From an uncultured Blautia sp. (GTDB lineage Bacteria; Bacillota; Clostridia; Lachnospirales; Lachnospiraceae): DNA of 64,000 bases. The DNA is taken from contig CAMOUV010000001.1 in the NCBI GenBank assembly GCA_946626695.1, forward strand, positions 3,339 to 67,338. Reading direction: 5' to 3'. This document shows, in pieces, positions 199 through 64,000 of this stretch (position 1 is the first letter of the stretch; the number at the start of each line of letters is the position of its first letter). Made by a program: the position numbers and the translations under genes. The notes below the pieces were generated by a model. That model did not search any database and was not told the DNA's origin. It worked only from the letters and a program-made list of their open reading frames with translations.

Positions 199-1002
199 GT
201 GAAAATGCTTGCTTGCAAGGGCATTTTCACAAACGTCGATGAAAGAACAAAGTTCTTTCATACTTCAGGCGGGAGGTGTTTTCTGATCAAATCAGAATGT
301 GGATTGCGGTCTTTTCTTTCCCGTTGGATTTTCCGGTGGGAGATCATTCCGCTTTTGGTGATCCTGGCAGTGAATATGGTTGTTTATTTCGGTGGGGGCA
401 GGCTGACGCAGAGCTGGAGGCATTATGATCTTACGTTGGCTTTTGACCGGATGGTTCCGTTGATCCCGGGGTTTATCTGGATTTATCTGCTGCCGTCGTA
501 TCTCTTCTGGGGGATCTGTTATATTCTGTCGGCGCAGAAGGGGAAGGATTATTTTTATCGTTTTGTGGCCTGTGATCTGACGATCCATATGATCTGTCTG
601 GTCTTCTTTTTGCTCCTTCCCACCACCAACGTGCGCCCGGAGATCGCGGGGAACACTCTTTCCGAAAGAATGCTGTTGATGACGTATCAGACGGATGGAG
701 GGGATCTGCCTTCCTGTCTGTTTCCGTCGATCCACTGTTATGTAAGCTGGCTCAGTTTCCGGGTGGTTCGGGAGATCCGGACATTGCCCCGATGGGCGTC
801 GCCGGTTTCCTGTGTGATGGCCTTGCTGATCATTGTCTCCACCCAGGTTCTGAAGCAGCATTATATCGTGGATGCCATCGCTGGTGTGGCGCTGGTAGAG
901 ATCTTCTGGCGGTTTTATCGGAAGGGTGAGCGGCATCGGGGAGTGGAGCGTTTTTTTGAAAAAATCAATTCGATTGTCTGGAAAGGAAAACAGGACTTAT
1001 GA
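199..1002 (+). CDS. PAP2-superfamily (Aur1/PAP2_3-like) integral membrane phosphatase/phosphotransferase; true start probably downstream (possibly CTG at 283)
   Basis: Several hydrophobic segments and an FPSIH motif. GGAGG at 272-276 precedes an in-frame CTG at 283, and the computed start at 199 lies inside a hairpin. Confidence 0.7.
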   Translation: MKMLACKGIFTNVDERTKFFHTSGGRCFLIKSECGLRSFLSRWIFRWEIIPLLVILAVNMVVYFGGGRLTQSWRHYDLTLAFDRMVPLIPGFIWIYLLPSYLFWGICYILSAQKGKDYFYRFVACDLTIHMICLVFFLLLPTTNVRPEIAGNTLSERMLLMTYQTDGGDLPSCLFPSIHCYVSWLSFRVVREIRTLPRWASPVSCVMALLIIVSTQVLKQHYIVDAIAGVALVEIFWRFYRKGERHRGVERFFEKINSIVWKGKQDL

Positions 1003-12399: not shown

Positions 12400-15300
12400 T
12401 TGAAAAAGAGGATCGATGAGCTTTTGAATGGAGAATTTGAATATGAGCCGCCCGTTCTCATGTTTTCCCAGGAAAGCGTGGAGGTGGAGCTTCCGGCCGG
12501 CGAGACAGCCCAGAGAGAGCTGTATATCGGCACGGAACAGAACCGGAAGATCCGCGGGTATGTGACGTCCTCTGACCGGAGACTGGTGCCGGGACTGGAA
12601 ATCTTTTCCGGGACCACCATACGCCTTCCCTTCGGCATCGATGCGGTGGGCCTGCTTCCCGGCGAAGTCCGTGAGGAGTGGCTCTGCTTCACCACGAATG
12701 TGGGCGAGTATAAGATCCCGGTCACGATCCGTACCGGATCGGGGGTCCTGTCCACATCGGAGGGGGAGGTCCGCTCCCTCGATGATTTTGCGAAGATCGC
12801 GGAGGAGGATTTCCGGGAAGCTTATCGAATGTTCACGGATCCGGAGTTTGAGAGACTGTGCGAAAAGCAGTCCGACGGGAGGATCCGTTCCTTGTATGCC
12901 GGTCTGTCCGCGCAGCCGGTCACCTATCAGAACCTGGAGGAATTCCTGATCGCCGCCGGCCGGAAGGAGAAGGTCACGGTGCGACTCCAGGAATACCGGA
13001 GAGAAATTTTCGAGATCACCGAATCCACCCGGGAGTCGGTGCTCCTTACCCGCAGCGGCTGGGGCCATCTGCGGATGGATGTGGTGGTGGAAGGCGGCTT
13101 TATCGAGACGGAAAAGCGTGTGATCACCGATGAAGATTTTATCGGAAGCTCCTACAACCTGGCCTATGTGATCCGGCAGGAAAAGCTGGGAGAGGGCAAT
13201 CAGTACGGAGGGATCCGCATCATCACGCCCTATCAGGAGCTGTTCTTTGAGGTGGTCGCCTCCAGGACCATGCGCTCGGGGGTGCAGATCCATCTGGAGG
13301 AACAGAAATGCCGGCTGAATCTGATGCGGGATTATCTGGATTACCGCTGCCAGACGCTGGACTGTCCCGCCTGGGCGGCGCAGTCGCATTATGAACTGAA
13401 CCGGCTGAAGGATTCGGGCTTTGATTATCCGGAATACCGGATCTATGAGGTTTTTGTCCTCTGGAAGGAGGGCAAAAAGGAAGAGGCAGCGGATCTGCTG
13501 AGAGAGTTTCACAGCCAGTCCTTTATCCGTGACAACCCGGAGATCGCCGGACTGTATCTGTATCTCTGCTCCGAGGCCGGCCTGTACAAGGACAAGGATG
13601 CGGTCCTCCGCAGAATCCAGGCTTTGCGGGCCCGGAACGAAAAAAGCTTTGTCCTGCAGGAGATCCTGCTTCAGGTGGATCCGGAGCTGGTGCGGCTGCC
13701 CTCGAGGGCACTGTACGAGCTGGAGGAGCTTTTTGAGAGAGGCTGCCGGAACCCGGTCCTGTATCTGGAGGCCTGGGTGCGCATCTGCATGGATGAGAGC
13801 CTCCTGCACCGGCTCAGCCGTTTCTGGATCCAGGTATTTCTGTTCGCGGGACGGAAAGGGCTTCTGACCCAGGAGCTTACCAACCGTTTCACCTTCCTGT
13901 CCGGAAACGAAAAAGAATTCCGGGAGAGCCTGTACCGGGCGCTGGTGTACGGGTACGAGGCGTATCCCTCCGACGATTCGCTGGAGGCGATCTGCCAGTA
14001 TATCATGCGCGGAAACCCGCGGAAGAAGGAGTATTTCCGCTGGTTCGAGCTGGCCGTGGAGCGGGACATCCGTCTCACAAGGGTGTTTGAATATTATATG
14101 GAGACCCTGGACATTTCCTATCACCGGGAGCTGCCCAAGTCTCTTCTGATGTATTTCAACTACAACAACAGCAATCTGGGGGATACAAGAAAAGCCTACA
14201 TCTATGCGGATGTGATCGCGAACCGCGATCAGGATCCCCAGACCTACAAAAGCTATCAGGAGACCATCCGTTCCTTTGCCGCCCAGAAGATCCGGGAGGG
14301 CAGGGTCAGCGAGGATTATGCGCTCCTGTATCAGGAATATCTCCATTCACCGGAAAATCAGGAGGAGGCACGGATCCTTTCGGGCATCCTTTTCGTCAAT
14401 CGTCTGTACTGCGACAGCAAGAAGGTCCGCTGTGTGATCGTGCGGCACAGCCAGCTGGTGCGGGAAGAGCTGTATCCCTGTGTCCAGGGCGTTGCGTACC
14501 CGCGGATCTACACGTCGGACGCGGCTGTCCTGTTCCAGGACGACAAGCAGCGCCGTTACAGCGCCACGGTGGATTACAATCTGAAGAAACTGATGGACGA
14601 GCGGGATCTCATCCCGCAGATCCTTGAAAAACGATATACGGAGCCCGGGATCCTTCTGAATTACTGTGAGACCCGGGAGATCACCGAACAGAATCTGGCG
14701 GTTTTCCAGCAGGTGGTCCAGTCCGATTCCTTCACGCCGGAATACCAGAAAGAGATCCGCAGGAGGATCCTTTCCTGGTACCGGGAGAATGTGCGGGGCT
14801 CCGAGCTGGACGGACTTCTGAAAAAGCTGGACTATCGGGAATATGCCCTGGTGGACCGGAAGACGCTTCTGGAGATCCTGATCGAAAGGGGACTGTTCCG
14901 CCAGGCCTACAGGATCGTGGAGGAGTTCGGGGCAGAAGAGGTGAGCCGGCCGGATCTGCTGAAGCTGGTAAGCCGCATGATCATCCGGCGGGATATGCGG
15001 GAGGATGACGAGCTGATCGCGCTTTCTTCCCAGGTGTTCCGGAACGGACTTTATGACGAAATGATCCTCCGTTATCTGATGATGTACCGCAACGGTCCGG
15101 TGGATGAGCTGTTTGCCATCCGCAAAAGCGCCGAGGGCTTTGAACTGGACACCTATTCCTTTGACGAGAAGATCCTGCAGCTTCTGATGCTGACCCAGGA
15201 TTACCGGAAGGAAGGGGAAAAGGTCCTGGAAAGCTATGTCCGTGAGTCCGGCAGGGAGAAAATCATCGGGGCGTATCTGACCCAGCTTTCCTACGGCGCG

Positions 15301-15933
15301 TTCGTGAAGGAGCACGGGATCAGTCCCTTTGTGCGGAGCTGTCTGGAGACGGCCTTCCGGAACGAATGGGAAGTGGATCAGGTCTGCCATCTGGCGCTGT
15401 TCAAATCCCTGGTGCGGGAGAAGGACAGCCGGGGCGATTATAAAGAAATGAAAGAAAAGCTGCTCCGGGAGTGCATGGAAAAAGGAATGGTATTCGGCTT
15501 CTTCCGGAAGCTTCCCCAGGATATCCTGAGCCCCTGGCAGCTGGATGACAAAACCTTTGTGGAATGTCATGCCGGGCCCGATGCCTCGGTGACCCTGTTC
15601 TACCGGCTGGATTCGGGACTGGGGGATGACGGGAATTATGTGTCCCAGCCGCTTGCCCCGGTGTATCAGGGGATTTTTGTGAGAACCTTTACCTTGTTTT
15701 ACGGAGAAACGCTGCGGTATTATTTTGTCATCGAGGAAAACGGGAAGAGCCGTAAGACCTCGGAGCGCGTGCTTACCATGAACCGGGTGGAGGGGAATCC
15801 TTCCTCCCGTTATCAGCTGATCAATCAGCTGCTGTCCTCCCGGAAGCTGAAGAAGGACCGGGAGACGGCTGCGGGCCTGAAACAGTATCTCCGTCAGGAA
15901 CAGTATGTCAATGAAATGTTCAGACTGCAATAA
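12400..15933 (+). CDS. DUF5717-family large cytoplasmic protein (beta-rich N- and C-terminal domains, long helical core)
   Basis: 1177 aa ORF with native codon usage, TTG start after GGGG RBS. MKKRIDELLNGEFEY start and C-terminal FTLFYGETLRYY recalled as DUF5717. Confidence 0.7.
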   Translation: MKKRIDELLNGEFEYEPPVLMFSQESVEVELPAGETAQRELYIGTEQNRKIRGYVTSSDRRLVPGLEIFSGTTIRLPFGIDAVGLLPGEVREEWLCFTTNVGEYKIPVTIRTGSGVLSTSEGEVRSLDDFAKIAEEDFREAYRMFTDPEFERLCEKQSDGRIRSLYAGLSAQPVTYQNLEEFLIAAGRKEKVTVRLQEYRREIFEITESTRESVLLTRSGWGHLRMDVVVEGGFIETEKRVITDEDFIGSSYNLAYVIRQEKLGEGNQYGGIRIITPYQELFFEVVASRTMRSGVQIHLEEQKCRLNLMRDYLDYRCQTLDCPAWAAQSHYELNRLKDSGFDYPEYRIYEVFVLWKEGKKEEAADLLREFHSQSFIRDNPEIAGLYLYLCSEAGLYKDKDAVLRRIQALRARNEKSFVLQEILLQVDPELVRLPSRALYELEELFERGCRNPVLYLEAWVRICMDESLLHRLSRFWIQVFLFAGRKGLLTQELTNRFTFLSGNEKEFRESLYRALVYGYEAYPSDDSLEAICQYIMRGNPRKKEYFRWFELAVERDIRLTRVFEYYMETLDISYHRELPKSLLMYFNYNNSNLGDTRKAYIYADVIANRDQDPQTYKSYQETIRSFAAQKIREGRVSEDYALLYQEYLHSPENQEEARILSGILFVNRLYCDSKKVRCVIVRHSQLVREELYPCVQGVAYPRIYTSDAAVLFQDDKQRRYSATVDYNLKKLMDERDLIPQILEKRYTEPGILLNYCETREITEQNLAVFQQVVQSDSFTPEYQKEIRRRILSWYRENVRGSELDGLLKKLDYREYALVDRKTLLEILIERGLFRQAYRIVEEFGAEEVSRPDLLKLVSRMIIRRDMREDDELIALSSQVFRNGLYDEMILRYLMMYRNGPVDELFAIRKSAEGFELDTYSFDEKILQLLMLTQDYRKEGEKVLESYVRESGREKIIGAYLTQLSYGAFVKEHGISPFVRSCLETAFRNEWEVDQVCHLALFKSLVREKDSRGDYKEMKEKLLRECMEKGMVFGFFRKLPQDILSPWQLDDKTFVECHAGPDASVTLFYRLDSGLGDDGNYVSQPLAPVYQGIFVRTFTLFYGETLRYYFVIEENGKSRKTSERVLTMNRVEGNPSSRYQLINQLLSSRKLKKDRETAAGLKQYLRQEQYVNEMFRLQ

Positions 15934-15944
15934 GGAGCTATGGA

Positions 15945-17210
15945 ATGAATGAGATTCGGGATCTGATCATCGGAATCGATTTTGGAAAAGAAAATACACA
16001 GCTCTGCTACTATGACCGCAAGGCGGATGAGCCCCGCTCGATCTCCATGAAGGTGGGAGCCAATGTCTACGAAGCTCCAACGGCTTTATGCCGGAGAGCC
16101 GGGCAGGCCGAATACTCGGTGGGAATCGAGGCGGAATATTTTTCCCGGGAGAAAAACGGTTATCTGATCGAGAATCTCTACGAGATCACCGGGAAGGAGG
16201 AGCCGGTGCAGGTGCTGGAGGAATCCAGGGAGCCCTGGGAGCTGGCGGCTTCTTTTATCAAAGGCATGCTGCGGTATCTCGGGGTGATGGAAGTGATCCG
16301 GAACACCCGCTGCCTGTGCATCGCCACCCCGTCTCTCACGGATATCCGGGTGAAAAACCTGAAGCGTGCCTGCACATCCCTCGGGATCCCGGAGGACCGT
16401 TTTCTGCTGATGGATTACGGGGAAAGCTTCTTTTATTATGTGATGACGCAGAAAAAAGAGGTGGTGAACCGCAGTGTGGCCTGGTACATTTTTGACGGCA
16501 ATGAGGTCACCTTCCGGAAGCTTTCGGTCAACAACGCCAGAAAGCCCGTCCTGGTACAGCTTGAGGAGCCGGTAACGACGACGCTGCCGGAGACGGCCCG
16601 GGAAAGAGATTCGGCCTTCTGCACGTTTATCCAGGAAACGGTGGGGACGGAGCTGTTCTCCAGCATTCAGATCAGCGGGGAAGGCTTTGACACCGACTGG
16701 GCGAAACAGGCGGTAAAGCTTCTGTGTTTTCAGAAACGGAAGGTATATTATGGAAACAATCTTCATGCGGGAGGAGCCTGCGCGGCGGGAAAGGAACGCA
16801 TGGAGGACCGGAATCTTAAGAATATCCGCTTCTTGAGCCAGTCCATTGTCAGGGAAGACGTGGGGATGGAAATGCTGGTCATGGGGTCTCCGGCCTATGT
16901 GCCGCTGATCACCGGCGGAGAAAACTGGTATGAATGCAGCAGCCGCTGCGAGCTGATCCTCAATAAGACCGAAGACCTGGTGTTTGTGGTTCTGCGGATG
17001 GGCGAGACCGAGAAAAAGCGGGTCGTGATGCATCTTCCCGGACTGCCGGCAAGACCGGACAAGACGACCCGGCTTCTGCTGGAGCTGGCCTATGTTTCGC
17101 CGGACCGCTGCCGCATCACGGTGACGGATCTCGGCTTTGGCGATATGTTCCCCTCCAGCGGAAAGGTCTGGAAGGAGACAGTGAACTGGACAGAGGAGGG
17201 AGTATCATGA
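15945..17210 (+). CDS. DUF5716-family protein; divergent Hsp70/actin-like fold
   Basis: N-terminal IIGIDFG (cf. DnaK IIGIDLG); C-terminal LPGLPARPDKTTRL...VTDLGFG (cf. DnaK SBD-beta). Confidence 0.7.
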   Translation: MNEIRDLIIGIDFGKENTQLCYYDRKADEPRSISMKVGANVYEAPTALCRRAGQAEYSVGIEAEYFSREKNGYLIENLYEITGKEEPVQVLEESREPWELAASFIKGMLRYLGVMEVIRNTRCLCIATPSLTDIRVKNLKRACTSLGIPEDRFLLMDYGESFFYYVMTQKKEVVNRSVAWYIFDGNEVTFRKLSVNNARKPVLVQLEEPVTTTLPETARERDSAFCTFIQETVGTELFSSIQISGEGFDTDWAKQAVKLLCFQKRKVYYGNNLHAGGACAAGKERMEDRNLKNIRFLSQSIVREDVGMEMLVMGSPAYVPLITGGENWYECSSRCELILNKTEDLVFVVLRMGETEKKRVVMHLPGLPARPDKTTRLLLELAYVSPDRCRITVTDLGFGDMFPSSGKVWKETVNWTEEGVS

Positions 17211-24782: not shown

Positions 24783-25544
24783 ATGACAAAACCCGTTTTT
24801 GTGAAAGACTGTATCATCGGGGAGGGAATCCCCTGTATCTGTGTGCCGGTGACCGGTAAAACCCGGGAGGAGATCCTCTCTCAGACGGCCGAAGCAGTAA
24901 AGGCCGGAGCCGATCTGGTGGAATGGCGGGCGGATCTGTGGGAAGAAGAGAACCGCCTGGCCCGGGTGGAAGAAATGCTCTTTGCCCTGGACGGTGTCCT
25001 GAAGGGAATTCCGCTTCTGTTCACGGTCCGGTCCTCGGAGGAGGGGGGGATCCTTGCGATCTCGCCGGAGGAGCAGACGGCACTGATCGAACGGGCGGCC
25101 GCCAGCGGAAAAACGGATCTGGCGGATGTGGAATATCTGCGGGATCCCGAGGCGATGAAACGTCTGATCCGGAATCTGCATTCCCGGGGCGTGGCCGTGA
25201 TCGCTTCCTCCCATGATTTTGAAAGAACGGGAACCAGGGAGGAGCTTCTGGAAAAGCTGGACCGGCTGGATCAAAGCGGGGCAGACATCCTGAAACTGGC
25301 CGTCATGCCGGAAAACAGCGAAGATGTGGAGGTGCTGATGGAAGCGGTCTCCGAGATGAGCCGGAACCATACGCAGAAACCGCTGATCGCCATGTCCATG
25401 GGAGACCTGGGGCAGATCAGCCGGATCCGGGGCGAAGCCTTCGGATCTTCCGTCACCTTCGGAACAGCCGGACCCGGGTCTGCGCCCGGACAGCTTCCCG
25501 TGGCGGAGCTGCGTGAAAAGATGGAAGCCTTTCATACCGTGTAA
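24783..25544 (+). CDS. aroD: Type I 3-dehydroquinate dehydratase
   Basis: ADLVEWRAD, LLFTVRSSEEGG, SSHDFERT, KLAVMP, IAMSMGDLGQISR, APGQ. Confidence 0.94.
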   Translation: MTKPVFVKDCIIGEGIPCICVPVTGKTREEILSQTAEAVKAGADLVEWRADLWEEENRLARVEEMLFALDGVLKGIPLLFTVRSSEEGGILAISPEEQTALIERAAASGKTDLADVEYLRDPEAMKRLIRNLHSRGVAVIASSHDFERTGTREELLEKLDRLDQSGADILKLAVMPENSEDVEVLMEAVSEMSRNHTQKPLIAMSMGDLGQISRIRGEAFGSSVTFGTAGPGSAPGQLPVAELREKMEAFHTV

Positions 25545-25559: not shown

Positions 25560-25593
25560 CAAAATCTCGAAAAACCTCGAAAAAGCTCGAACG
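25560..25593. repeat. Three-unit 10-bp tandem array (A)AAAA[T/C/G]CTCG + AACG, copy 1
   Basis: caaaatctcg aaaaacctcg aaaaagctcg aacg; nearly identical array at 61661-61704. Confidence 0.9.
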
Positions 25594-25606
25594 ATTTTCC
25601 TTCGGA

Positions 25607-25650
25607 TTCGACAGGGTTCGACAAGATTCTGAAAAGAGATCCGTTATAAT
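25607..25650 (+). promoter_or_regulatory. Putative Spo0A-dependent promoter: two perfect 0A boxes over the -35 region plus TATAAT
   Basis: TTCGACA at 25607-25613 and 25617-25623 (reverse complement of TGTCGAA); TATAAT at 25645-25650; no consensus -35. Confidence 0.7.
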
Positions 25651-25718: not shown

Positions 25719-26336
25719 ATGTACGGCACACAGGCGGAAAAAACGGCCGGTTACAAAGAAGAACAGGATCTGCTGCGGCGGATGCGGAGAGAGAAGGACA
25801 GGAAGGCCCGGGAACGGCTGATCTGCGGATCTCTCTGGATGGTCCGGCATATTGCAGGGCAGTTTCACGTATATGGAACCGCTGAGGATCTGGTTTCCGT
25901 GGGAACACTGGGCCTGATCAAGGCCGTGGATTCCTACGACAGCCGGAAGAAAAACCGGCTTGGCTGTTACGCGGTCCGCTGTATTGCCAACGAGATCCGC
26001 ACCTATCTTCGCAAAGAAGGCGCTCACATGACGGTATCGCTGGAGACATTGCCGGACCAGAATCTGTTGTACAGGGAGGGCTCCATGGAACCGATCGGAA
26101 AAACCTATCCAGAGCCGCAGAAAGCGGCGGAAAAAGCCTGGGAGCTGCAGTGCCTCGCGGCGCTGCTGGAGAAACTGCCGGAGATGGACCGGGAGCTGCT
26201 CCGTCTTCGGTTTCTGGAGGACCGGCCGATGACCCAGAGGGAAACGGCAGAGAAACTCGGAACCAGCCAGTCCTATGTCTCCCGCCGGGAAAAAAAGATC
26301 CTCGCCGCTTTACGGGGCGGACTGGAGGCAGAATGA
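25719..26336 (+). CDS. SigE/SigK-family RNA polymerase sigma factor without pro-sequence (SigE-like, divergent)
   Basis: EDLVSVGTLGLIKAVDSY (region 2.2-2.3), YAVRCIANEI, TQRETAEKLGTSQSYVSRREKKIL (region 4.2, SigE-like SQSY); RBS GAGGGGG. Confidence 0.85.
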   Translation: MYGTQAEKTAGYKEEQDLLRRMRREKDRKARERLICGSLWMVRHIAGQFHVYGTAEDLVSVGTLGLIKAVDSYDSRKKNRLGCYAVRCIANEIRTYLRKEGAHMTVSLETLPDQNLLYREGSMEPIGKTYPEPQKAAEKAWELQCLAALLEKLPEMDRELLRLRFLEDRPMTQRETAEKLGTSQSYVSRREKKILAALRGGLEAE

Positions 26337-59988: not shown

Positions 59989-61662
59989 ATGCTGGTACAT
60001 CTTCACGTAAAGAATCTGGCCCTGATCGCGGAGGCGGAGGTATCCTTCGGACCCGGGCTTAACATACTGACCGGCGAGACCGGAGCCGGCAAATCGATCC
60101 TGCTGGGCTCCATGCAGCTGATCCTTGGAAGCAAGATCAGCCGCAGCATGATCCGGGATCCCGAGACCTATGCGCTGGTGGAACTGCTGTTTGAGGTCGA
60201 AAACGAGAAGGCTTTGAAGGAACTGCGCGCGATGGACATCGAGCCGGAGGATGGGCAGGTCCTCCTGTCCCGGAAGATCACCGGCGGCCGGAGCGTGAGC
60301 AAGATCAACGGTGAAACCTGTACGGTCAGCCAGATGAAGGCGGCAGCCTCCTGTCTTCTGGATATTCACGGACAGCATGAGCATCAGTCTCTTCTGTACC
60401 GGGACAGACAACTGGAGATCCTGGACGCCTTTGCGCAGGATACCGTCCGTCCTCTGGCGGAAAAGACGGCTGAAAGCTTCCGGGCACTGCGGGAGAGCCG
60501 GAAGGCGCTTTCGTCTCTCACGATGGATCAGGAACAGCGGGCCAGAGAAATGGCTTTCCTGGAATACGAGATCCAGGAGATCGAACAGGCGGATCTGAAA
60601 CCCGGAGAGGACGAGGAGCTGGAAAAACGCTACCGCAAGCTGTCCAACAGCCGGCGGATGATGGAGACCCTGTCCCGGGTCCGTGCCCTGACGGGATATG
60701 AACAAGGCGCGTCCGAACAGACCGGGGAAGCGGTGCACGAAATGGCGAAGATCCTTCAGTTTGACGAAGATCTGCAGGACTGTCATGAGCTGCTGGTGCA
60801 GGCGGATGCCCTGCTCTCGGATTTCGGCCGTGAGCTGTCCTCCTATATGGACGACCTGGTCTTCGACGAAGAGACCTACTATGAGACGGAAAAACGGCTG
60901 GATCTGATCAACGGTCTGAAATCACGCTTCGGACAAAGCATTCCGGACATACTGGCCTACCGGGACCGGCAGGCGGAAAAATACGCCCTTCTTGCGGATC
61001 TGGAAAAGCATCTGGCGCAGGCTCAGCGAAAAGCACAGGAAGCGAAGGATGTCTATGACAAGGCCGCTTGCGCTCTGTCCGCGGAACGGAAAAAAGCCGC
61101 GTCGGAGCTGGAAAAACAGGTGATCCGGTCCTGCAAGGACCTGAATTTCCTGGATGTCCGGTTCTCGATCCGCTTTGACGAAAAGAACGAGTCGGCGGAC
61201 GGAACGGATGATGTGGAATATGAGATCTCCACCAACCCGGGGGAGGAAATCCGTCCTCTGGGAGAGATCGTGTCGGGCGGAGAACTGTCCCGTATCATGC
61301 TTGCGCTGAAAACCATCCTGGCAGACCGGGATCAGATCGATACGCTGATCTTCGATGAGATCGATACCGGCATCAGCGGCCGCACGGCCCAGAAGGTATC
61401 CGAGAAGATGGCGCAGATCGCCCGTCACCGTCAGGTGATCTGCATCACCCATCTGCCCCAGATCGCGGCCATGGCGGATCAGCATTATGAGATCGAAAAG
61501 CACGGCGATGAGGTGAACGGGACCGAGACCCAGATCCACCTTCTCGACGCGGAGGAGTCCGTGCGGGAACTGGCCAGACTCCTGGGGGGAGCCTCCATCA
61601 CCCCCGCCGTACTGCAGAACGCGCGGGAAATGAGGGCCATGGCTCTGGAACAAAAAGGATAA
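59989..61662 (+). CDS. recN: DNA repair protein RecN
   Basis: LTGETGAGKS, IHGQHEHQ, STNPGE, SGGELSRIML, FDEIDTGISG, ITHLPQIAA. Confidence 0.96.
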   Translation: MLVHLHVKNLALIAEAEVSFGPGLNILTGETGAGKSILLGSMQLILGSKISRSMIRDPETYALVELLFEVENEKALKELRAMDIEPEDGQVLLSRKITGGRSVSKINGETCTVSQMKAAASCLLDIHGQHEHQSLLYRDRQLEILDAFAQDTVRPLAEKTAESFRALRESRKALSSLTMDQEQRAREMAFLEYEIQEIEQADLKPGEDEELEKRYRKLSNSRRMMETLSRVRALTGYEQGASEQTGEAVHEMAKILQFDEDLQDCHELLVQADALLSDFGRELSSYMDDLVFDEETYYETEKRLDLINGLKSRFGQSIPDILAYRDRQAEKYALLADLEKHLAQAQRKAQEAKDVYDKAACALSAERKKAASELEKQVIRSCKDLNFLDVRFSIRFDEKNESADGTDDVEYEISTNPGEEIRPLGEIVSGGELSRIMLALKTILADRDQIDTLIFDEIDTGISGRTAQKVSEKMAQIARHRQVICITHLPQIAAMADQHYEIEKHGDEVNGTETQIHLLDAEESVRELARLLGGASITPAVLQNAREMRAMALEQKG

Positions 61663-61704
61663 AAAGCTCGAAAAACCTCGAAAAATCTCGAAAAAGCTCG
61701 AACG
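61661..61704. repeat. Four-unit 10-bp tandem array AAAAA[G/C/T]CTCG + AACG, copy 2
   Basis: aaaaagctcg aaaaacctcg aaaaatctcg aaaaagctcg aacg; matches 25560-25593. Confidence 0.9.
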
Positions 61705-61740
61705 AAAAAGGGGCCGGAAGGCCTCTTTTTCCTTGCTTTT
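61705..61740 (+). terminator. Probable intrinsic terminator after recN
   Basis: AAAAAGGGGCC-GGAA-GGCCTCTTTTT followed by further T-runs. Confidence 0.6.
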
Positions 61741-61848
61741 TTCGCCGTAAAATGATAAGTATTTGTGTGGGAGGACAATCCGGAAAGCGGAGGGTCCTGC
61801 CGGAAGCGGCCGCTTCGGAAACGAATCGGAAGGAGGGGAGCTTATCCA

Positions 61849-62487
61849 TTGAACAAAATTAATGTTGCCGTTGCCTCGGAGGGAGAGCTGCAGTCGGATG
61901 ATGTGCTGGGACGGATGATCCTGGAGGATGACTCGCTGCAGTATGTGGGAACGGTGAGAGGAGAAAAAGATCTGGAAACGCTGATGGAGGTGAATCCGCC
62001 GGATGTTATCCTGTTCCACACGATCGTCCCGAAGCTCTGGAGACGGAACGGACGGCTCTTTTTCGGGGCCCAGAACGTGGGAGGCACCCGGTATGTCATC
62101 CCGGGAACGGTCCTTCCCCTGCGGGAAGAGAATCTGGAGCTCATCATCAGCAATCTTTTTCATGAGCTGGGGATCCCGGCCCATATCAGCGGGTTCCAGT
62201 TCCTGCGGGACGCGGTGGTCCTGGCGGTCTATGACCGGGAGATGATCCGGAACATCACAAAGGTCATGTATCCCACCATCGCGAAGAAAAACATGACCAC
62301 GCCTTCCCGGGTGGAACGGGCGATCCGCCATGCCATCGACACGGCCTGGGAAAGAGGAAACATGTCCCGCATCAACGAACTCTTCGGCTTTACGGTGAAG
62401 GAGGAGACTGCAAAACCATCCAACCGCGAATTCATCGCGATGATCTCCGACAAGATCCGCACGGACTGGAAAAACCGCAGCTACTGA
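61849..62487 (+). CDS. spo0A: Spo0A ortholog with intact DNA-binding domain and degenerate, truncated receiver domain (212 aa)
   Basis: HELGIPAHISG, ITKVMYPTIAKK, TTPSRVERAIRHAI, KPSNREFIAMISDK; sits after recN; TTG start after GGAGGGGAG. Confidence 0.88.
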   Translation: MNKINVAVASEGELQSDDVLGRMILEDDSLQYVGTVRGEKDLETLMEVNPPDVILFHTIVPKLWRRNGRLFFGAQNVGGTRYVIPGTVLPLREENLELIISNLFHELGIPAHISGFQFLRDAVVLAVYDREMIRNITKVMYPTIAKKNMTTPSRVERAIRHAIDTAWERGNMSRINELFGFTVKEETAKPSNREFIAMISDKIRTDWKNRSY

Positions 62488-62550
62488 AAAAAGAGAGGCT
62501 TTCCGGCCGGAAATTCTAACAATCTGCCGAAATGTTTTCGCTGAAACGGG

Positions 62551-62579
62551 TTGCCCGTTGTGGAATTTTGCGGTATAAT
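62551..62579 (+). promoter_or_regulatory. sigma-A promoter of glgA, with TGCCGAA (0A-box consensus TGNCGAA) at 62525-62531
   Basis: TTGCCC-17 bp-TATAAT. Confidence 0.65.
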
Positions 62580-62649
62580 CAGAGGGAAAGAGCGGGCAGC
62601 GGGCCCGCCGTACGATTCCGTGGAAAAATAACCCTGAGGAGGACACCAA

Positions 62650-64000
62650 ATGAAGAATATACTGTATGCCACATCAGAAGCTGTACCCTTTATCAAAACA
62701 GGAGGACTTGCTGACGTTGCGGGCGCTCTGCCCAAATGCTTTGACAAAAGATATTTTGATGTCCGTGTCATCCTTCCCAAGTATGCCTGCATGAAGCAGG
62801 AGTGGAAGGATCGTATGGAATATGTGACCCATTTTTATATGGACATCGGCTATAAAAACTGTTATGTGGGCGTGATGCACATCGAACATGAAGGGATCCA
62901 TTTCTACTTCATCGACAATGAATATTACTTCAGCGGACCGACCCCCTACGACAGCGCACCGTGGGATCTGGAGAGATTTGCCTACTTCTCCAAAGCGGTT
63001 CTGTCCGTGCTTCCGGTGATCGGCTTCCGCCCGGACATCATTCACTGTCATGACTGGCAGACAGGCCTTGTGCCGGTATATCTGCATGATTCCTTCCAGC
63101 AGAATGAGTTTTTCCGCGGGATCAAGTCGATCATGACGATCCACAACCTGAAATTCCAGGGCGTGTGGGATGTCAAGACCGTACAGGAGCTGACCGGCCT
63201 TTCGGATTATTATTTCACGCCGGACAAGCTGGAAGCCTACAAGGATGCGAATTTCCTGAAGGGCGGCATCGTCTTTGCGGATGCGGTCACGACGGTGAGC
63301 AATACCTATGCCGAGGAGATCAAGACACCCTTCTACGGCGAGCGGCTGGACGGGCTTCTCAATGCGAGATCCAACAGCCTGCGGGGCATTGTCAACGGAA
63401 TCGATTATGACATCTTCAATCCGGAGACCGATCCCTTCATCCCGGCACCCTACAATGCGGTGACCTTCCGCAAGGAGAAGGTCAAGAACAAAATCCAGCT
63501 CCAGAAGGATCTGGGCCTGGATCAGGATCCGAAGGTGATGATGATCGGCATCGTCTCCCGTCTGACGGATCAGAAGGGCTTTGACCTGATCGCCTATATG
63601 ATGGACGAGCTCTGCCAGGATGCGGTGCAGATCGTAGCCCTTGGAACCGGTGAGGAACGGTATGAGAACATGTTCCGTCACTTTGACTGGAAATATCACG
63701 GCAAGGTATCCGCGCAGATCTATTACGATGACGCACTGTCCCACAAGATCTACGCGGCCTCGGATGCGTTCCTGATGCCCTCGCTCTTCGAGCCCTGCGG
63801 CCTCAGTCAGCTGATGAGCCTTCGCTACGGCACACTGCCCATCGTGAGGGAGACCGGCGGCCTGAAGGATACGGTGGAACCTTTCAACGAGTATGAAAGC
63901 ACCGGGACCGGCTTCTCCTTCCGCAACTATAATGCCCATGAGATGCTGAGTACGATCCGCAATGCGGAGAGGATCTTCTACGACAAGAAACGGGAATGGA
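62650..64000 (+). CDS. glgA: Glycogen synthase (runs off the window end)
   Basis: SEAVPFIKTGGLADV, HCHDWQTG, TIHNLKFQG, VSRLTDQKG, PSLFEPCGLSQL. Confidence 0.96.
   Translation, partial: MKNILYATSEAVPFIKTGGLADVAGALPKCFDKRYFDVRVILPKYACMKQEWKDRMEYVTHFYMDIGYKNCYVGVMHIEHEGIHFYFIDNEYYFSGPTPYDSAPWDLERFAYFSKAVLSVLPVIGFRPDIIHCHDWQTGLVPVYLHDSFQQNEFFRGIKSIMTIHNLKFQGVWDVKTVQELTGLSDYYFTPDKLEAYKDANFLKGGIVFADAVTTVSNTYAEEIKTPFYGERLDGLLNARSNSLRGIVNGIDYDIFNPETDPFIPAPYNAVTFRKEKVKNKIQLQKDLGLDQDPKVMMIGIVSRLTDQKGFDLIAYMMDELCQDAVQIVALGTGEERYENMFRHFDWKYHGKVSAQIYYDDALSHKIYAASDAFLMPSLFEPCGLSQLMSLRYGTLPIVRETGGLKDTVEPFNEYESTGTGFSFRNYNAHEMLSTIRNAERIFYDKKREW

What the first reader, a model, noticed from the sequence alone, without database searches (positions are those of the whole stretch)
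25560..25593. The same 10-bp-phased AAAAA(N)CTCG array upstream of the sigma gene and of spo0A, 36 kb apart
Seen: three units here and four units at 61661-61704. Both end in AAAAAGCTCGAACGA, and I saw the array in no other intergenic region of the window. Each unit places an xxTCGAA (5/7 match to the 0A box) and a 5-bp A-tract on the same helical face. Established: phased A-tracts bend DNA, and Spo0A binds tandem boxes head-to-tail with roughly 10-bp spacing. Inference: these are low-affinity cooperative loading arrays for the altered Spo0A (autoregulation plus sigma control), possibly reflecting evolved specificity. With the two perfect boxes, the sigma promoter has five TCGA cores in about 60 bp.
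Basis: partly seen in the sequence, partly recalled or inferred. Interest (0 to 1): 0.8.

Follow-up and report, generated by a model that had tools for sequence, protein, structure and literature searches.

The report
Phased weak Spo0A-box promoter arrays
Two promoters in an uncultured rumen Clostridium, one for a stripped-down spo0A master-regulator gene and one for a lone sporulation-type sigma factor, carry the same conserved run of 10-bp repeats that look like weakened Spo0A binding sites lined up on one face of the DNA; this is a new layout of a known kind of control element, and binding has not been shown.

Summary
Three (25560-25594) and four (61661-61705) head-to-tail 10-bp units A5-N-CTCG, both ending AAAAAGCTCGAACGA, are the only phased A-tract/TCGAA arrays in the 64 kb (5 two-unit hits against 0.01 expected). 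They lie upstream of an orphan SigE/K-like sigma gene and of a receiver-less spo0A.

The core is under selection. At the sigma site 25 consecutive columns are invariant in two other species whose sigma proteins are only 54-59% identical. At the spo0A site the TCG cores persist in two of three orthologues, while N and copy number (3 or 4) vary.

In other Clostridia the same array type, mostly xGTCGAAAAA (consensus 0A box plus AAA), sits directly upstream of Spo0A-family genes in 7 of 58 cases, in helical register with the -10.

Best reading: tandem, weakened (G2 to C) 0A boxes that load Spo0A cooperatively on one DNA face. "Evolved specificity" is not supported, because the recognition helix is identical to that of B. 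subtilis Spo0A and two consensus boxes are conserved beside the array.

A generic phased-A-tract promoter element remains a live rival, since similar arrays precede rRNA promoters in organisms without Spo0A. No binding or transcript data could be obtained. New variant of a known kind; moderate interest.

The parts
25560..25594 (+). Array 1: three 10-bp units (CAAAATCTCG, AAAAACCTCG, AAAAAGCTCG) plus AACGA. TCG cores at 25567, 25577 and 25587. Lies 16 nt after the aroD stop, with no terminator in between.
   Evidence: The 25 columns CTCGAAAAACCTCGAAAAAGCTCGA are invariant in L031 and L168. The array is identical in 10 strain contigs.
25607..25623 (-). Two consensus 0A boxes (TGTCGAA on the minus strand, TTCGACA on the plus strand) at 25607-25613 and 25617-25623, 10 bp apart. 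They point the opposite way to the array but sit on the same helical register (21 bp from the last array core). They overlap the place where a -35 would lie.
   Evidence: Invariant in L031 and L168.
25645..25650 (+). TATAAT, inferred -10 of the sigma gene. It lies 58 nt from the last array TCG, and there is no good -35 at 16-18 nt (an activator-dependent look).
   Evidence: TACAAT sits at the same column in L031 and L168. No transcript data.
25719..26336 (+). Orphan sporulation-type sigma factor, 205 aa. Best matches are SigE/SigK, far below their cut-offs. No pro-sequence and no spoIIGA.
61661..61705 (+). Array 2: four 10-bp units (AAAAAGCTCG, AAAAACCTCG, AAAAATCTCG, AAAAAGCTCG) plus AACGA. 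TCG cores at 61668, 61678, 61688 and 61698. Begins inside the recN stop codon.
   Evidence: Copy number is 3 in L001 and 4 in the other nine strain contigs, one of which (L006) carries an N-position variant. Orthologous arrays are in L180 and L011, and a degenerate one in L181.
61704..61731 (+). recN intrinsic-terminator hairpin (GAAAAAGGGGCC GGAA GGCCTCTTTTTC) between the array and the spo0A promoter region.
   Evidence: Pairing is kept through changed bases in L180, L011 and L181.
61733..61761 (+). Conserved TTGCTT-17 nt-TAAGTA, a candidate spo0A promoter. TAAGTA starts 58 nt from the last array TCG, the same distance as at site 1. It is a weak match to a sigma-A promoter, so the assignment is tentative.
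   Evidence: Conserved in L180 and L011 (TTGCAT/TAACAA in L181). Not picked by the consensus scans.
61849..62487 (+). spo0A-like gene, 212 aa, TTG start. The Spo0A_C DNA-binding domain is intact. The N-terminus is a 63-aa remnant of the receiver, with DD changed to SE and the phospho-acceptor Asp changed to His.

Best explanation
Each array is a run of three or four head-to-tail, deliberately sub-optimal Spo0A boxes. The units read NCTCGAA and keep T3, C4, G5, A6 and A7 of TGTCGAA, but have C where the contacted G2 should be. They are joined by AAA spacers, so that all TCGA cores and all A5 tracts fall on one face of the helix.

The Spo0A encoded here cannot be phosphorylated. Its receiver is truncated and the acceptor Asp is His. 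Its activity must therefore follow its concentration. The arrays would be occupied cooperatively once that concentration is high enough, with the A-tract bend helping the protein line up.

At the sigma promoter the array (about -66 to -98 from the inferred start) extends the register set by two consensus boxes at about -37.5 and -47.5. These boxes overlap the missing -35, a spoIIG-like, activator-dependent layout. At spo0A the array gives autoregulation.

Shown: the sequence, its rarity, its conservation, its association with Spo0A-family genes elsewhere, and the intact recognition helix.

Inferred: that Spo0A binds it, that binding is cooperative, where transcription starts, and whether the effect is activation, repression or a block to read-through from aroD or recN.
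For: 1. Rarity and placement. These are the only phased TCGAA or A-tract arrays in 64 kb, and both stand before Spo0A-circuit genes.

2. Selection on the core. CTCGAAAAACCTCGAAAAAGCTCGA, the two TTCGACA boxes and the -10 are invariant in L031 and L168. The sigma proteins of those species are only 54-59% identical to this one, and the L168 aroD is 76% identical. At spo0A, the TCG cores are kept at 10-bp spacing in L180 (86%) and L011 (70%), while the N base and copy number change.

3. Independent recurrence. Among 58 unique clostridial arrays from the genome scan, 7 lie directly upstream and in the same orientation as a gene with Spo0A_C; four of the five gene products scanned against Pfam (L045, L069, L094, L067) carry Response_reg plus Spo0A_C. 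One more lies upstream of a SigF/G-like sigma. About 0.1 would be expected by chance (my estimate).

4. Match to the 0A consensus. In Clostridia the base before TCG is G in 59% of units and TG is the commonest dinucleotide (23%). In other phyla the figures are 36% and 8%. Arrays before Spo0A genes mix GTCG and CTCG units (L069, L094, L140, L043).

5. Helical register. In the five such loci with a clear sigma-A promoter, the last TCG lies 27, 37, 48, 48 or 58 nt from the -10, that is, in steps of a helical turn. Site 1 and its orthologues are at 58, and the two consensus boxes of site 1 are at 27 and 37.

6. The protein. The DNA-binding domain aligns end to end with 1LQ1 and 1FC3, and the recognition helix is identical.

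7. Precedent. Spo0A footprints on two imperfect boxes 3 bp apart and on four consecutive boxes at the phi29 origins (PMC2731898). spo0A autoregulation through several interacting 0A boxes is established (PMC12090719).
Against: - No unit has the contacted G2, and a single G2 change lowers affinity about 10-fold (PMC3485338). An isolated unit would be a poor site.
- Arrays of the same build occur in organisms that have no Spo0A (Saccharibacteria, cyanobacteria, spirochaetes, Proteobacteria, Streptococcus). Two of them sit just upstream of 16S rRNA promoters. The form alone therefore does not imply Spo0A.
- Most clostridial arrays precede ordinary genes such as hrcA, gap and mscL.
- The array points the opposite way to the two consensus boxes at site 1.
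- At site 2 a terminator hairpin separates the array from a promoter that is only weakly defined.
- In one orthologue (L181) the cores have decayed to ACGA.
- A sporulating relative (Blautia, L183) has no array.
- No RNA or binding data exist for this organism.
Confidence: 0.55

Rival explanations
1. Generic upstream promoter element. Phased A5 tracts bend the DNA, or contact the RNA polymerase alpha subunit, and so raise or set promoter strength without any specific regulator. The TCG is carried along only because the unit arose by tandem duplication.
For: - Arrays of TCGAAAAANN units lie immediately upstream of TTGACA-type promoters in many genomes. These include the 16S rRNA promoters of a Saccharibacteria MAG (L077) and a Clostridia MAG (L065), and phyla without Spo0A.
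- Spacing to the -10 in steps of a helical turn is what curved-DNA elements also require.
- That phased A-tracts bend DNA is established knowledge.
Against: - If only the A-tracts mattered, the CTCG spacers should drift. They are invariant across species at site 1 and keep TCG at site 2, whereas an A-tract base (GGAAAAC in L011) and the N base do change.
- The arrays lie at about -66 to -108 by the inferred -10, not at -40 to -60.
- No other promoter in the 64 kb has one.
- The 7 of 58 association with Spo0A-family genes is unexplained.
Confidence: 0.2
2. Operator for a different regulator that binds direct repeats with a 10-11 bp period (for example an OmpR/PhoB-type response regulator). This regulator would control both spo0A and the sigma gene from above.
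For: Head-to-tail direct repeats at one helical turn are the usual site form for winged-helix response regulators (established knowledge). All 10 positions of the two downstream units are invariant at site 1, including the N bases, which is more than a 0A box needs.
Against: No candidate regulator or matching known motif was identified. The association elsewhere is with Spo0A_C genes themselves, and the units grade into perfect TGTCGAA boxes. The two consensus 0A boxes continue the same register.
Confidence: 0.1
3. Functionless microsatellite. A 10-bp unit was expanded by replication slippage at two A-rich intergenic spots and is tolerated.
For: Copy number differs between strains (3 units in L001, 4 in the others) and one N base differs (L006). 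The metagenome scan returns many unrelated simple repeats of the same unit.
Against: Conservation across species with 54-59% sigma identity. The same 19-nt end (CTCGAAAAAGCTCGAACGA) and the same 58-nt distance to a conserved hexamer at two loci 36 kb apart. Invariance in 10 strain contigs at site 1.
Confidence: 0.05

Closest known systems
Consecutive 0A boxes on phage phi29/Nf DNA (four consecutive boxes at each phi29 origin; two imperfect boxes 3 bp apart at the A2c promoter)
   Same: Several head-to-tail 0A-type boxes with a 10-bp period. Imperfect boxes that all carry the same single deviation are still footprinted by Spo0A (PMC2731898).
   Different: Those are phage sites used to repress early promoters and to block replication initiation. 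The deviation there is at C4 (TGTtGAA), not G2. They are not exact 10-bp repeats with A5 spacers.
B. subtilis spo0A promoter region with boxes 0A1-0A4 (autoregulation)
   Same: Several Spo0A sites in front of spo0A itself, with attractive interactions between bound boxes. Sites downstream of a promoter can act as a roadblock (PMC12090719).
   Different: There the boxes are dispersed between two promoters (sigma-A Pv and sigma-H Ps), not a tandem array, and the protein needs phosphorylation. Here no sigma-H-type promoter is recognisable, the array precedes a terminator, and the protein has no acceptor Asp.
B. subtilis spoIIG (pro-sigma-E operon) promoter
   Same: A sigma gene of the E/K type behind a good -10 with no usable -35 at normal spacing. 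0A boxes overlap the -35 region and there is a further upstream Spo0A site. The spoIIG side of this comparison is from my own knowledge of the literature and was not re-read here.
   Different: The sigma here has no pro-sequence and no spoIIGA partner. The upstream site is a regular three-unit repeat. The orientation of the boxes was not compared.
abrB tandem 0A boxes / Spo0A-C-DNA crystal structure 1LQ1
   Same: Two boxes head-to-tail, 3 bp apart, each bound by one DNA-binding domain. The domain here is alignable over its full length and has an identical recognition helix. G2, C4 and G5 are the contacted bases (PMC3485338).
   Different: Two boxes there, three or four here. Those boxes keep G2.
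Phased A-tract (curved DNA) upstream elements and UP elements of strong bacterial promoters
   Same: A5 tracts once per helical turn, upstream of a promoter and in register with it. Comparable arrays precede rRNA promoters in L065 and L077.
   Different: UP elements lie at -40 to -60 and are almost pure A/T. Here half of each unit is a conserved G/C-containing core, and the arrays lie further upstream.

Membership tests
Spo0A binding site (0A box) cluster | Core keeps the contacted C4 and G5 and the flanking T3, A6 and A7 of TGTCGAA | tested here: met
   All seven units read NCTCGAA. The contacted bases are as stated in PMC3485338.
Spo0A binding site (0A box) cluster | Contacted G at position 2 | tested here: not met
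   C in all seven units, and also in L031, L168 and L180. G is present in two of three units in L011 and in most clostridial arrays. A weak site is predicted, not a non-site.
Spo0A binding site (0A box) cluster | Neighbouring boxes head-to-tail, 3 bp apart (10-bp period) | tested here: met
   Exact period of 10. Precedent in PMC2731898.
Spo0A binding site (0A box) cluster | A Spo0A with an intact DNA-recognition helix is encoded in the genome | tested here: met
   Spo0A_C hit at 2.1e-39. SRVERAIRHAI is identical to 1LQ1 and 1FC3.
Spo0A binding site (0A box) cluster | Lies in the control region of genes of the Spo0A circuit | tested here: met
   Upstream of spo0A and of a SigE/K-like sigma that also carries two consensus boxes. 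Seven further arrays lie upstream of Spo0A_C genes.
Spo0A binding site (0A box) cluster | Protected or shifted by Spo0A (footprint, EMSA, ChIP) | not testable with these tools
   No experimental data exist for this uncultured organism.
Phased A-tract / UP-type upstream promoter element | A-tracts of 4-6 bases repeated once per helical turn | tested here: met
   A5 (once A4) every 10 bp, in three and four copies.
Phased A-tract / UP-type upstream promoter element | Sequence between the A-tracts is free to vary | tested here: not met
   The TCG cores are invariant at site 1 across three species and are kept at site 2 in L180 and L011.
Phased A-tract / UP-type upstream promoter element | UP element proper: A/T-rich block at -40 to -60, abutting the -35 | tested here: not met
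   The arrays end 50 nt before the inferred -10, that is, about -62 and further upstream. The units are 40% G+C. The start sites are inferred only.
Phased A-tract / UP-type upstream promoter element | Measured curvature, or alpha-CTD-dependent stimulation | not testable with these tools
   Needs gel or transcription assays.
Direct-repeat operator of an OmpR/PhoB-type response regulator | Direct repeats with a 10-11 bp period, plus a cognate regulator with a matching known motif | tested here: inconclusive
   The repeat form fits. No cognate regulator or motif was sought beyond Spo0A.
Contingency (phase-variable) simple sequence repeat | Copy number varies between strains AND the repeat sits in a -35/-10 spacer or a reading frame, so that unit changes switch expression | tested here: not met
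   Copy number does vary (3 or 4 units). However, the unit is one helical turn long and lies upstream of the core promoter, so register is preserved.

The most novel reading that the evidence does not exclude
In a clade of rumen Clostridia that lost spoIVB and the Spo0A receiver, a phosphorylation-independent Spo0A and an orphan sporulation-type sigma may form a small self-contained switch. Its only inputs would be protein concentration and cooperative filling of (A5-N-CTCG)n arrays of deliberately weakened boxes. Array length (3 or 4 units between strains) would tune the threshold.

More broadly, one-helical-turn arrays of 0A boxes in fixed register with the -10 may be a general, so far undescribed, autoregulatory signature of Spo0A-family genes across Clostridia.

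A bolder extension rests only on my recalled consensus sequences. The conserved TGCTT-15 nt-GGTAAGTAT before spo0A resembles a forespore-type (sigma-F-like) promoter left over from the lost spoIVB. If so, the orphan sigma would transcribe spo0A and close a positive loop.
Probability: 0.3. Interest if true: 0.65.

Novelty: new variant of a known kind. Interest (0 to 1): 0.5.

Why it matters
Spo0A is kept by most non-sporulating Clostridia (32 of 42 in one survey, bioRxiv 10.1101/2022.02.25.481979), and what it does there is unknown.

Here the protein has lost the ability to be phosphorylated, yet its DNA-binding domain, two consensus boxes and two conserved arrays are under selection. That points to a working regulator controlled by dose rather than by a phosphorelay, and it names its first two likely targets.

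If the arrays are Spo0A loading sites, they offer a simple, testable example of how the number, strength and phasing of sites set a threshold. The recurrence of (TGTCGAAAAA)n before Spo0A-family genes would also give a sequence signature for finding autoregulated Spo0A paralogues in gut and rumen genomes.

If the arrays are only bent-DNA promoter elements, the finding is ordinary.

Tried and rejected
- RNA evidence. Only two metatranscriptome runs from the source sample were found. They hold none of the sigma region and give no coverage at 61343-62676, so there are no start sites and no expression data.

- Rfam. No RNA family is in the window. An RNA-level role for the repeats was not pursued, because they are A-rich and unstructured, and only site 2 is certainly transcribed, as the recN 3' end.

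- Consensus promoter scan. It finds nothing at either site. My own scoring finds TATAAT at site 1 with no -35, and does not pick TTGCTT/TAAGTA at site 2. The site-2 promoter therefore rests on conservation only.

- Sigma-H-type promoter before spo0A. None is conserved; a GAAT is present only in L180.

- Altered specificity of Spo0A. Rejected, because the recognition helix is identical.

- Whole-genome regulon scan. The metagenome scan with the strict CTCG pattern returned both known sites of this species and one orthologue, with no third site, but coverage of the genome there is unknown.

- Literature. A search for GTCGAAAAA as a motif returned only unrelated primer sequences.

- Flagellar gene downstream of L080/L117. 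My by-eye guess was not confirmed by Pfam.

- Sporulating relative (Blautia obeum). No array before spo0A or after recN, so the array is not ancestral to the family.

Full report
THE SEQUENCE. Site 1 (25560-25594) is CAAAATCTCG AAAAACCTCG AAAAAGCTCG AACGA. Site 2 (61661-61705) is AAAAAGCTCG AAAAACCTCG AAAAATCTCG AAAAAGCTCG AACGA. Tandem Repeats Finder reports both with period 10. The two-unit pattern occurs five times, only at these sites, against 0.01 expected. TCGAA-N5-TCGAA occurs six times against 0.30 expected, and the sixth is the pair of consensus boxes at the sigma promoter. No other run of three phased A4 tracts exists on either strand of the window. Perfect 0A boxes as such are not enriched (6 against 8 expected), but two of them stand 10 bp apart at 25607 and 25617.

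CONTEXT. The window is about 55% G+C, with most genes on the plus strand. Site 1 lies 16 nt after the stop of aroD (24783-25544), with no terminator, and 125 nt before a 205-aa sigma-70-family gene. The best matches of that gene are SigE and SigK, far below their cut-offs. Its closest relatives are one protein at 54% identity and then ordinary SigE/K at about 40%.

Site 2 begins inside the recN stop codon. It is followed by a 12-pair hairpin with a T-run (61704-61731), then by a conserved TTGCTT-17-TAAGTA, and then by a 212-aa gene with a TTG start and a strong ribosome-binding site. The gene order xseA-xseB-ispA-dxs-tlyA-nadK-argR-recN-spo0A-glgA-recA is the usual one. The exception is spoIVB, which is present between recN and spo0A in Blautia obeum and missing here.

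The Spo0A protein has a full Spo0A_C domain (2.1e-39) and no receiver hit. Its first 63 residues still align with the start of a canonical receiver. However, the acidic pair is SE and the phospho-acceptor Asp is His, and about 88 residues are replaced by about 31. Relatives with this short form (212-226 aa) come from sheep, goat and cattle rumen metagenomes. The organism is an uncultured rumen clostridium, and its nearest canonical Spo0A sequences are from Blautia and other Lachnospiraceae.

CONSERVATION AT SITE 1. Ten strain contigs carry an identical array. Two other species have sigma proteins 54% and 59% identical to this one (L031, L168; the L168 aroD is 76% identical). They keep 25 consecutive columns, CTCGAAAAACCTCGAAAAAGCTCGA, without a single change. 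They also keep ATTTTC, both TTCGACA boxes, GATCCG, the -10 (TACAAT) and TACCCCTGCA, with no gaps between array and -10. This control region is far better conserved than the protein it controls.

CONSERVATION AT SITE 2. L180 (Spo0A 86% identical) has TCTCG, GCTCG, GCTCG plus AACGA. L011 (70%) has AAGTCG, CCTCG, CGTCG, so the consensus G appears in two units. L181 (68%) has decayed to TTACGAATATTTACGAG. The hairpin keeps its pairing through base changes, and TTGCTT-17-TAAGTA is kept, as TTGCAT/TAACAA in L181. Among strain contigs of the window's species, one has three units instead of four and one has a different N base. The more distant short-Spo0A clade (48% identity; L012, L016) has no array but does have discrete boxes, AGTCGAT-TAT-TGTCGAA, 10 bp apart. 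Blautia has only a single AAGTCGAAA. The pattern is a constrained TCG(A) core and period, with a free N base and free copy number. The array arose within the receiver-less clade.

THE SAME BUILD ELSEWHERE. Half of them are from Clostridia. In those, the base before TCG is G in 59% of units and TG is the commonest dinucleotide (23%), which gives TGTCGAAAAA, the consensus 0A box plus three A. In other phyla the figures are 36% and 8%.

A Spo0A_C profile finds a Spo0A-family gene directly downstream, in the same orientation, in 7 of the 58 unique clostridial arrays (L043, L045, L067, L069, L094, L110, L140). Four of the five gene products I scanned against Pfam (L045, L069, L094, L067) carry Response_reg plus Spo0A_C. 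L083 precedes a SigF/G-like sigma. L067 and L110 are orthologous, so at least six cases are independent. With one to three such genes among a few thousand per genome, about 0.1 would be expected (my estimate). Several of these arrays mix GTCG and CTCG units, and L094 even ends in GTCGAACGA like the arrays here.

In the five loci with an unmistakable sigma-A promoter, the last TCG lies 27, 37, 48, 48 and 58 nt before the -10, which is in steps of one helical turn. Site 1 and its orthologues are at 58, and the two consensus boxes of site 1 are at 27 and 37. This places box centres near -37.5, -47.5, -58.5 and -68.5, all on one face. That regularity was noticed after the fact, on few loci.

WHAT SPEAKS AGAINST A SPO0A-ONLY READING. 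Arrays of the same form occur in Saccharibacteria, cyanobacteria, Sphaerochaetaceae, Proteobacteria, Bacteroidota and Streptococcus. In a Saccharibacteria MAG and a Clostridia MAG they stand just upstream of the promoter of a 16S rRNA gene. Most clostridial arrays precede ordinary genes such as hrcA, gap and mscL. Phased A-tracts with a TCG spacer are therefore also a generic promoter-upstream form.

The strict CTCG pattern in metagenomes gives 30 stretches. Three of them belong to this clade: both known sites of this species, and the sigma site of L168. The rest are unrelated simple repeats. This argues weakly that the species has no third array, but coverage of the genome there is unknown.

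MECHANISM. Published work states that Spo0A contacts G2, C4 and G5 of TGTCGAA, and that single changes at these bases lower affinity about 10-fold without abolishing binding (PMC3485338). It also shows that Spo0A protects pairs of imperfect boxes 3 bp apart and four consecutive boxes at the phi29 origins (PMC2731898). Finally, the boxes before B. subtilis spo0A interact and can act as activators, repressors or roadblocks (PMC12090719). Every unit here keeps C4 and G5 and lacks G2. The recognition helix of the protein (SRVERAIRHAI) is identical to that in the solved complexes, and consensus boxes are conserved beside the array. The simplest reading is a set of weak sites for an unchanged specificity, not a new specificity.

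The protein cannot be phosphorylated, so I infer that its concentration is the signal. Runs of weak, phased sites would give a cooperative, thresholded response at its own gene and at the sigma gene. The sigma promoter has a good -10, no -35, and two boxes over the -35 region plus an upstream site. This resembles B. subtilis spoIIG (my own knowledge).

Whether the arrays activate, repress or block read-through cannot be told. Read-through matters because there is no terminator after aroD, and because array 2 lies before the recN terminator. I put 0.55 on Spo0A binding, 0.2 on a regulator-independent bent-DNA element, 0.1 on another direct-repeat regulator and 0.05 on a neutral repeat.

VERDICT. 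Clusters of 0A boxes and autoregulation of spo0A are known. The exact one-turn repeat of G2-less boxes is a new variant. So are its conservation at two promoters of a receiver-less Spo0A and orphan-sigma pair, and the recurrence of such arrays before Spo0A-family genes. Interest is moderate.

Noticed in passing
window 61849-62487: The Spo0A here is a 212-aa form with a receiver remnant: DD changed to SE, the phospho-acceptor Asp changed to His, and about 88 residues replaced by about 31. It still has a fully conserved DNA-binding domain. spoIVB is missing between recN and spo0A. Short relatives (212-226 aa) occur in several rumen metagenomes.
   Followed up: partly
window 61803-61816: Perfect 14-bp palindrome GAAGCGGCCGCTTC in the spo0A leader, invariant in L180 and L011 and partly kept in L181. 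It could be an operator or an RNA hairpin.
   Followed up: no
L001 9823-9852 and L006 456-495 versus window 61661-61700: The array differs between strain contigs of the same species. L001 has three units where the other nine have four, and L006 has G for C at one N position. The sigma-site array is identical in all ten contigs.
   Followed up: partly
window 61733-61764; L180, L011: The conserved TGCTT-15 nt-GGTAAGTAT (GATAAGTAT in the window) directly after the recN terminator is a poor sigma-A promoter. From my recalled consensus it resembles a forespore (sigma-F-type) promoter, possibly the former spoIVB promoter. In Blautia a TTGCTT also follows the recN terminator, ahead of spoIVB (L183 1500-1530).
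   Followed up: no
L043, L045, L067, L069, L094, L110, L140 (arrays as listed): Arrays of three to five xGTCGAAAAA or xCTCGAAAAA units lie directly upstream of diverged Spo0A-family response-regulator genes in Oscillospiraceae, Faecousia, Faecalicatena and other Clostridia, often right after the terminator of the gene before. Some of these proteins have changed recognition-helix residues (VEHAMR, VEINIR).
   Followed up: partly
L077 5150-5172 and L065 5113-5135: TCGAAAAANN arrays lie immediately upstream of TTGACA promoters of 16S rRNA genes, one of them in a Saccharibacteria MAG that cannot have Spo0A.
   Followed up: partly
L033, L048, L057, L060, L074, L091, L098, L099, L115, L122, L129, L131: Twelve loci of the Streptococcus parasanguinis group share GGTCGAAAAAAATCGAAAAAAATCGG in a nearly identical flank. 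In nine of them a 546-aa ORF starts 412 nt downstream. This looks like part of a conserved mobile or prophage element.
   Followed up: no
L053 285-318 and L106 (array at 605-627, minus strand): Arrays of TGTCGAAAAA or CGTCGAAAAA lie upstream of ParB-domain genes in a Mageeibacillus MAG and a Clostridia MAG.
   Followed up: no
window about 12400-17210: Large genes carrying DUF5717 (about 1170 aa) and DUF5716 domains, followed by a TPR protein, lie upstream of the purine genes. The annotation is taken from the matching strain contig L022.
   Followed up: no
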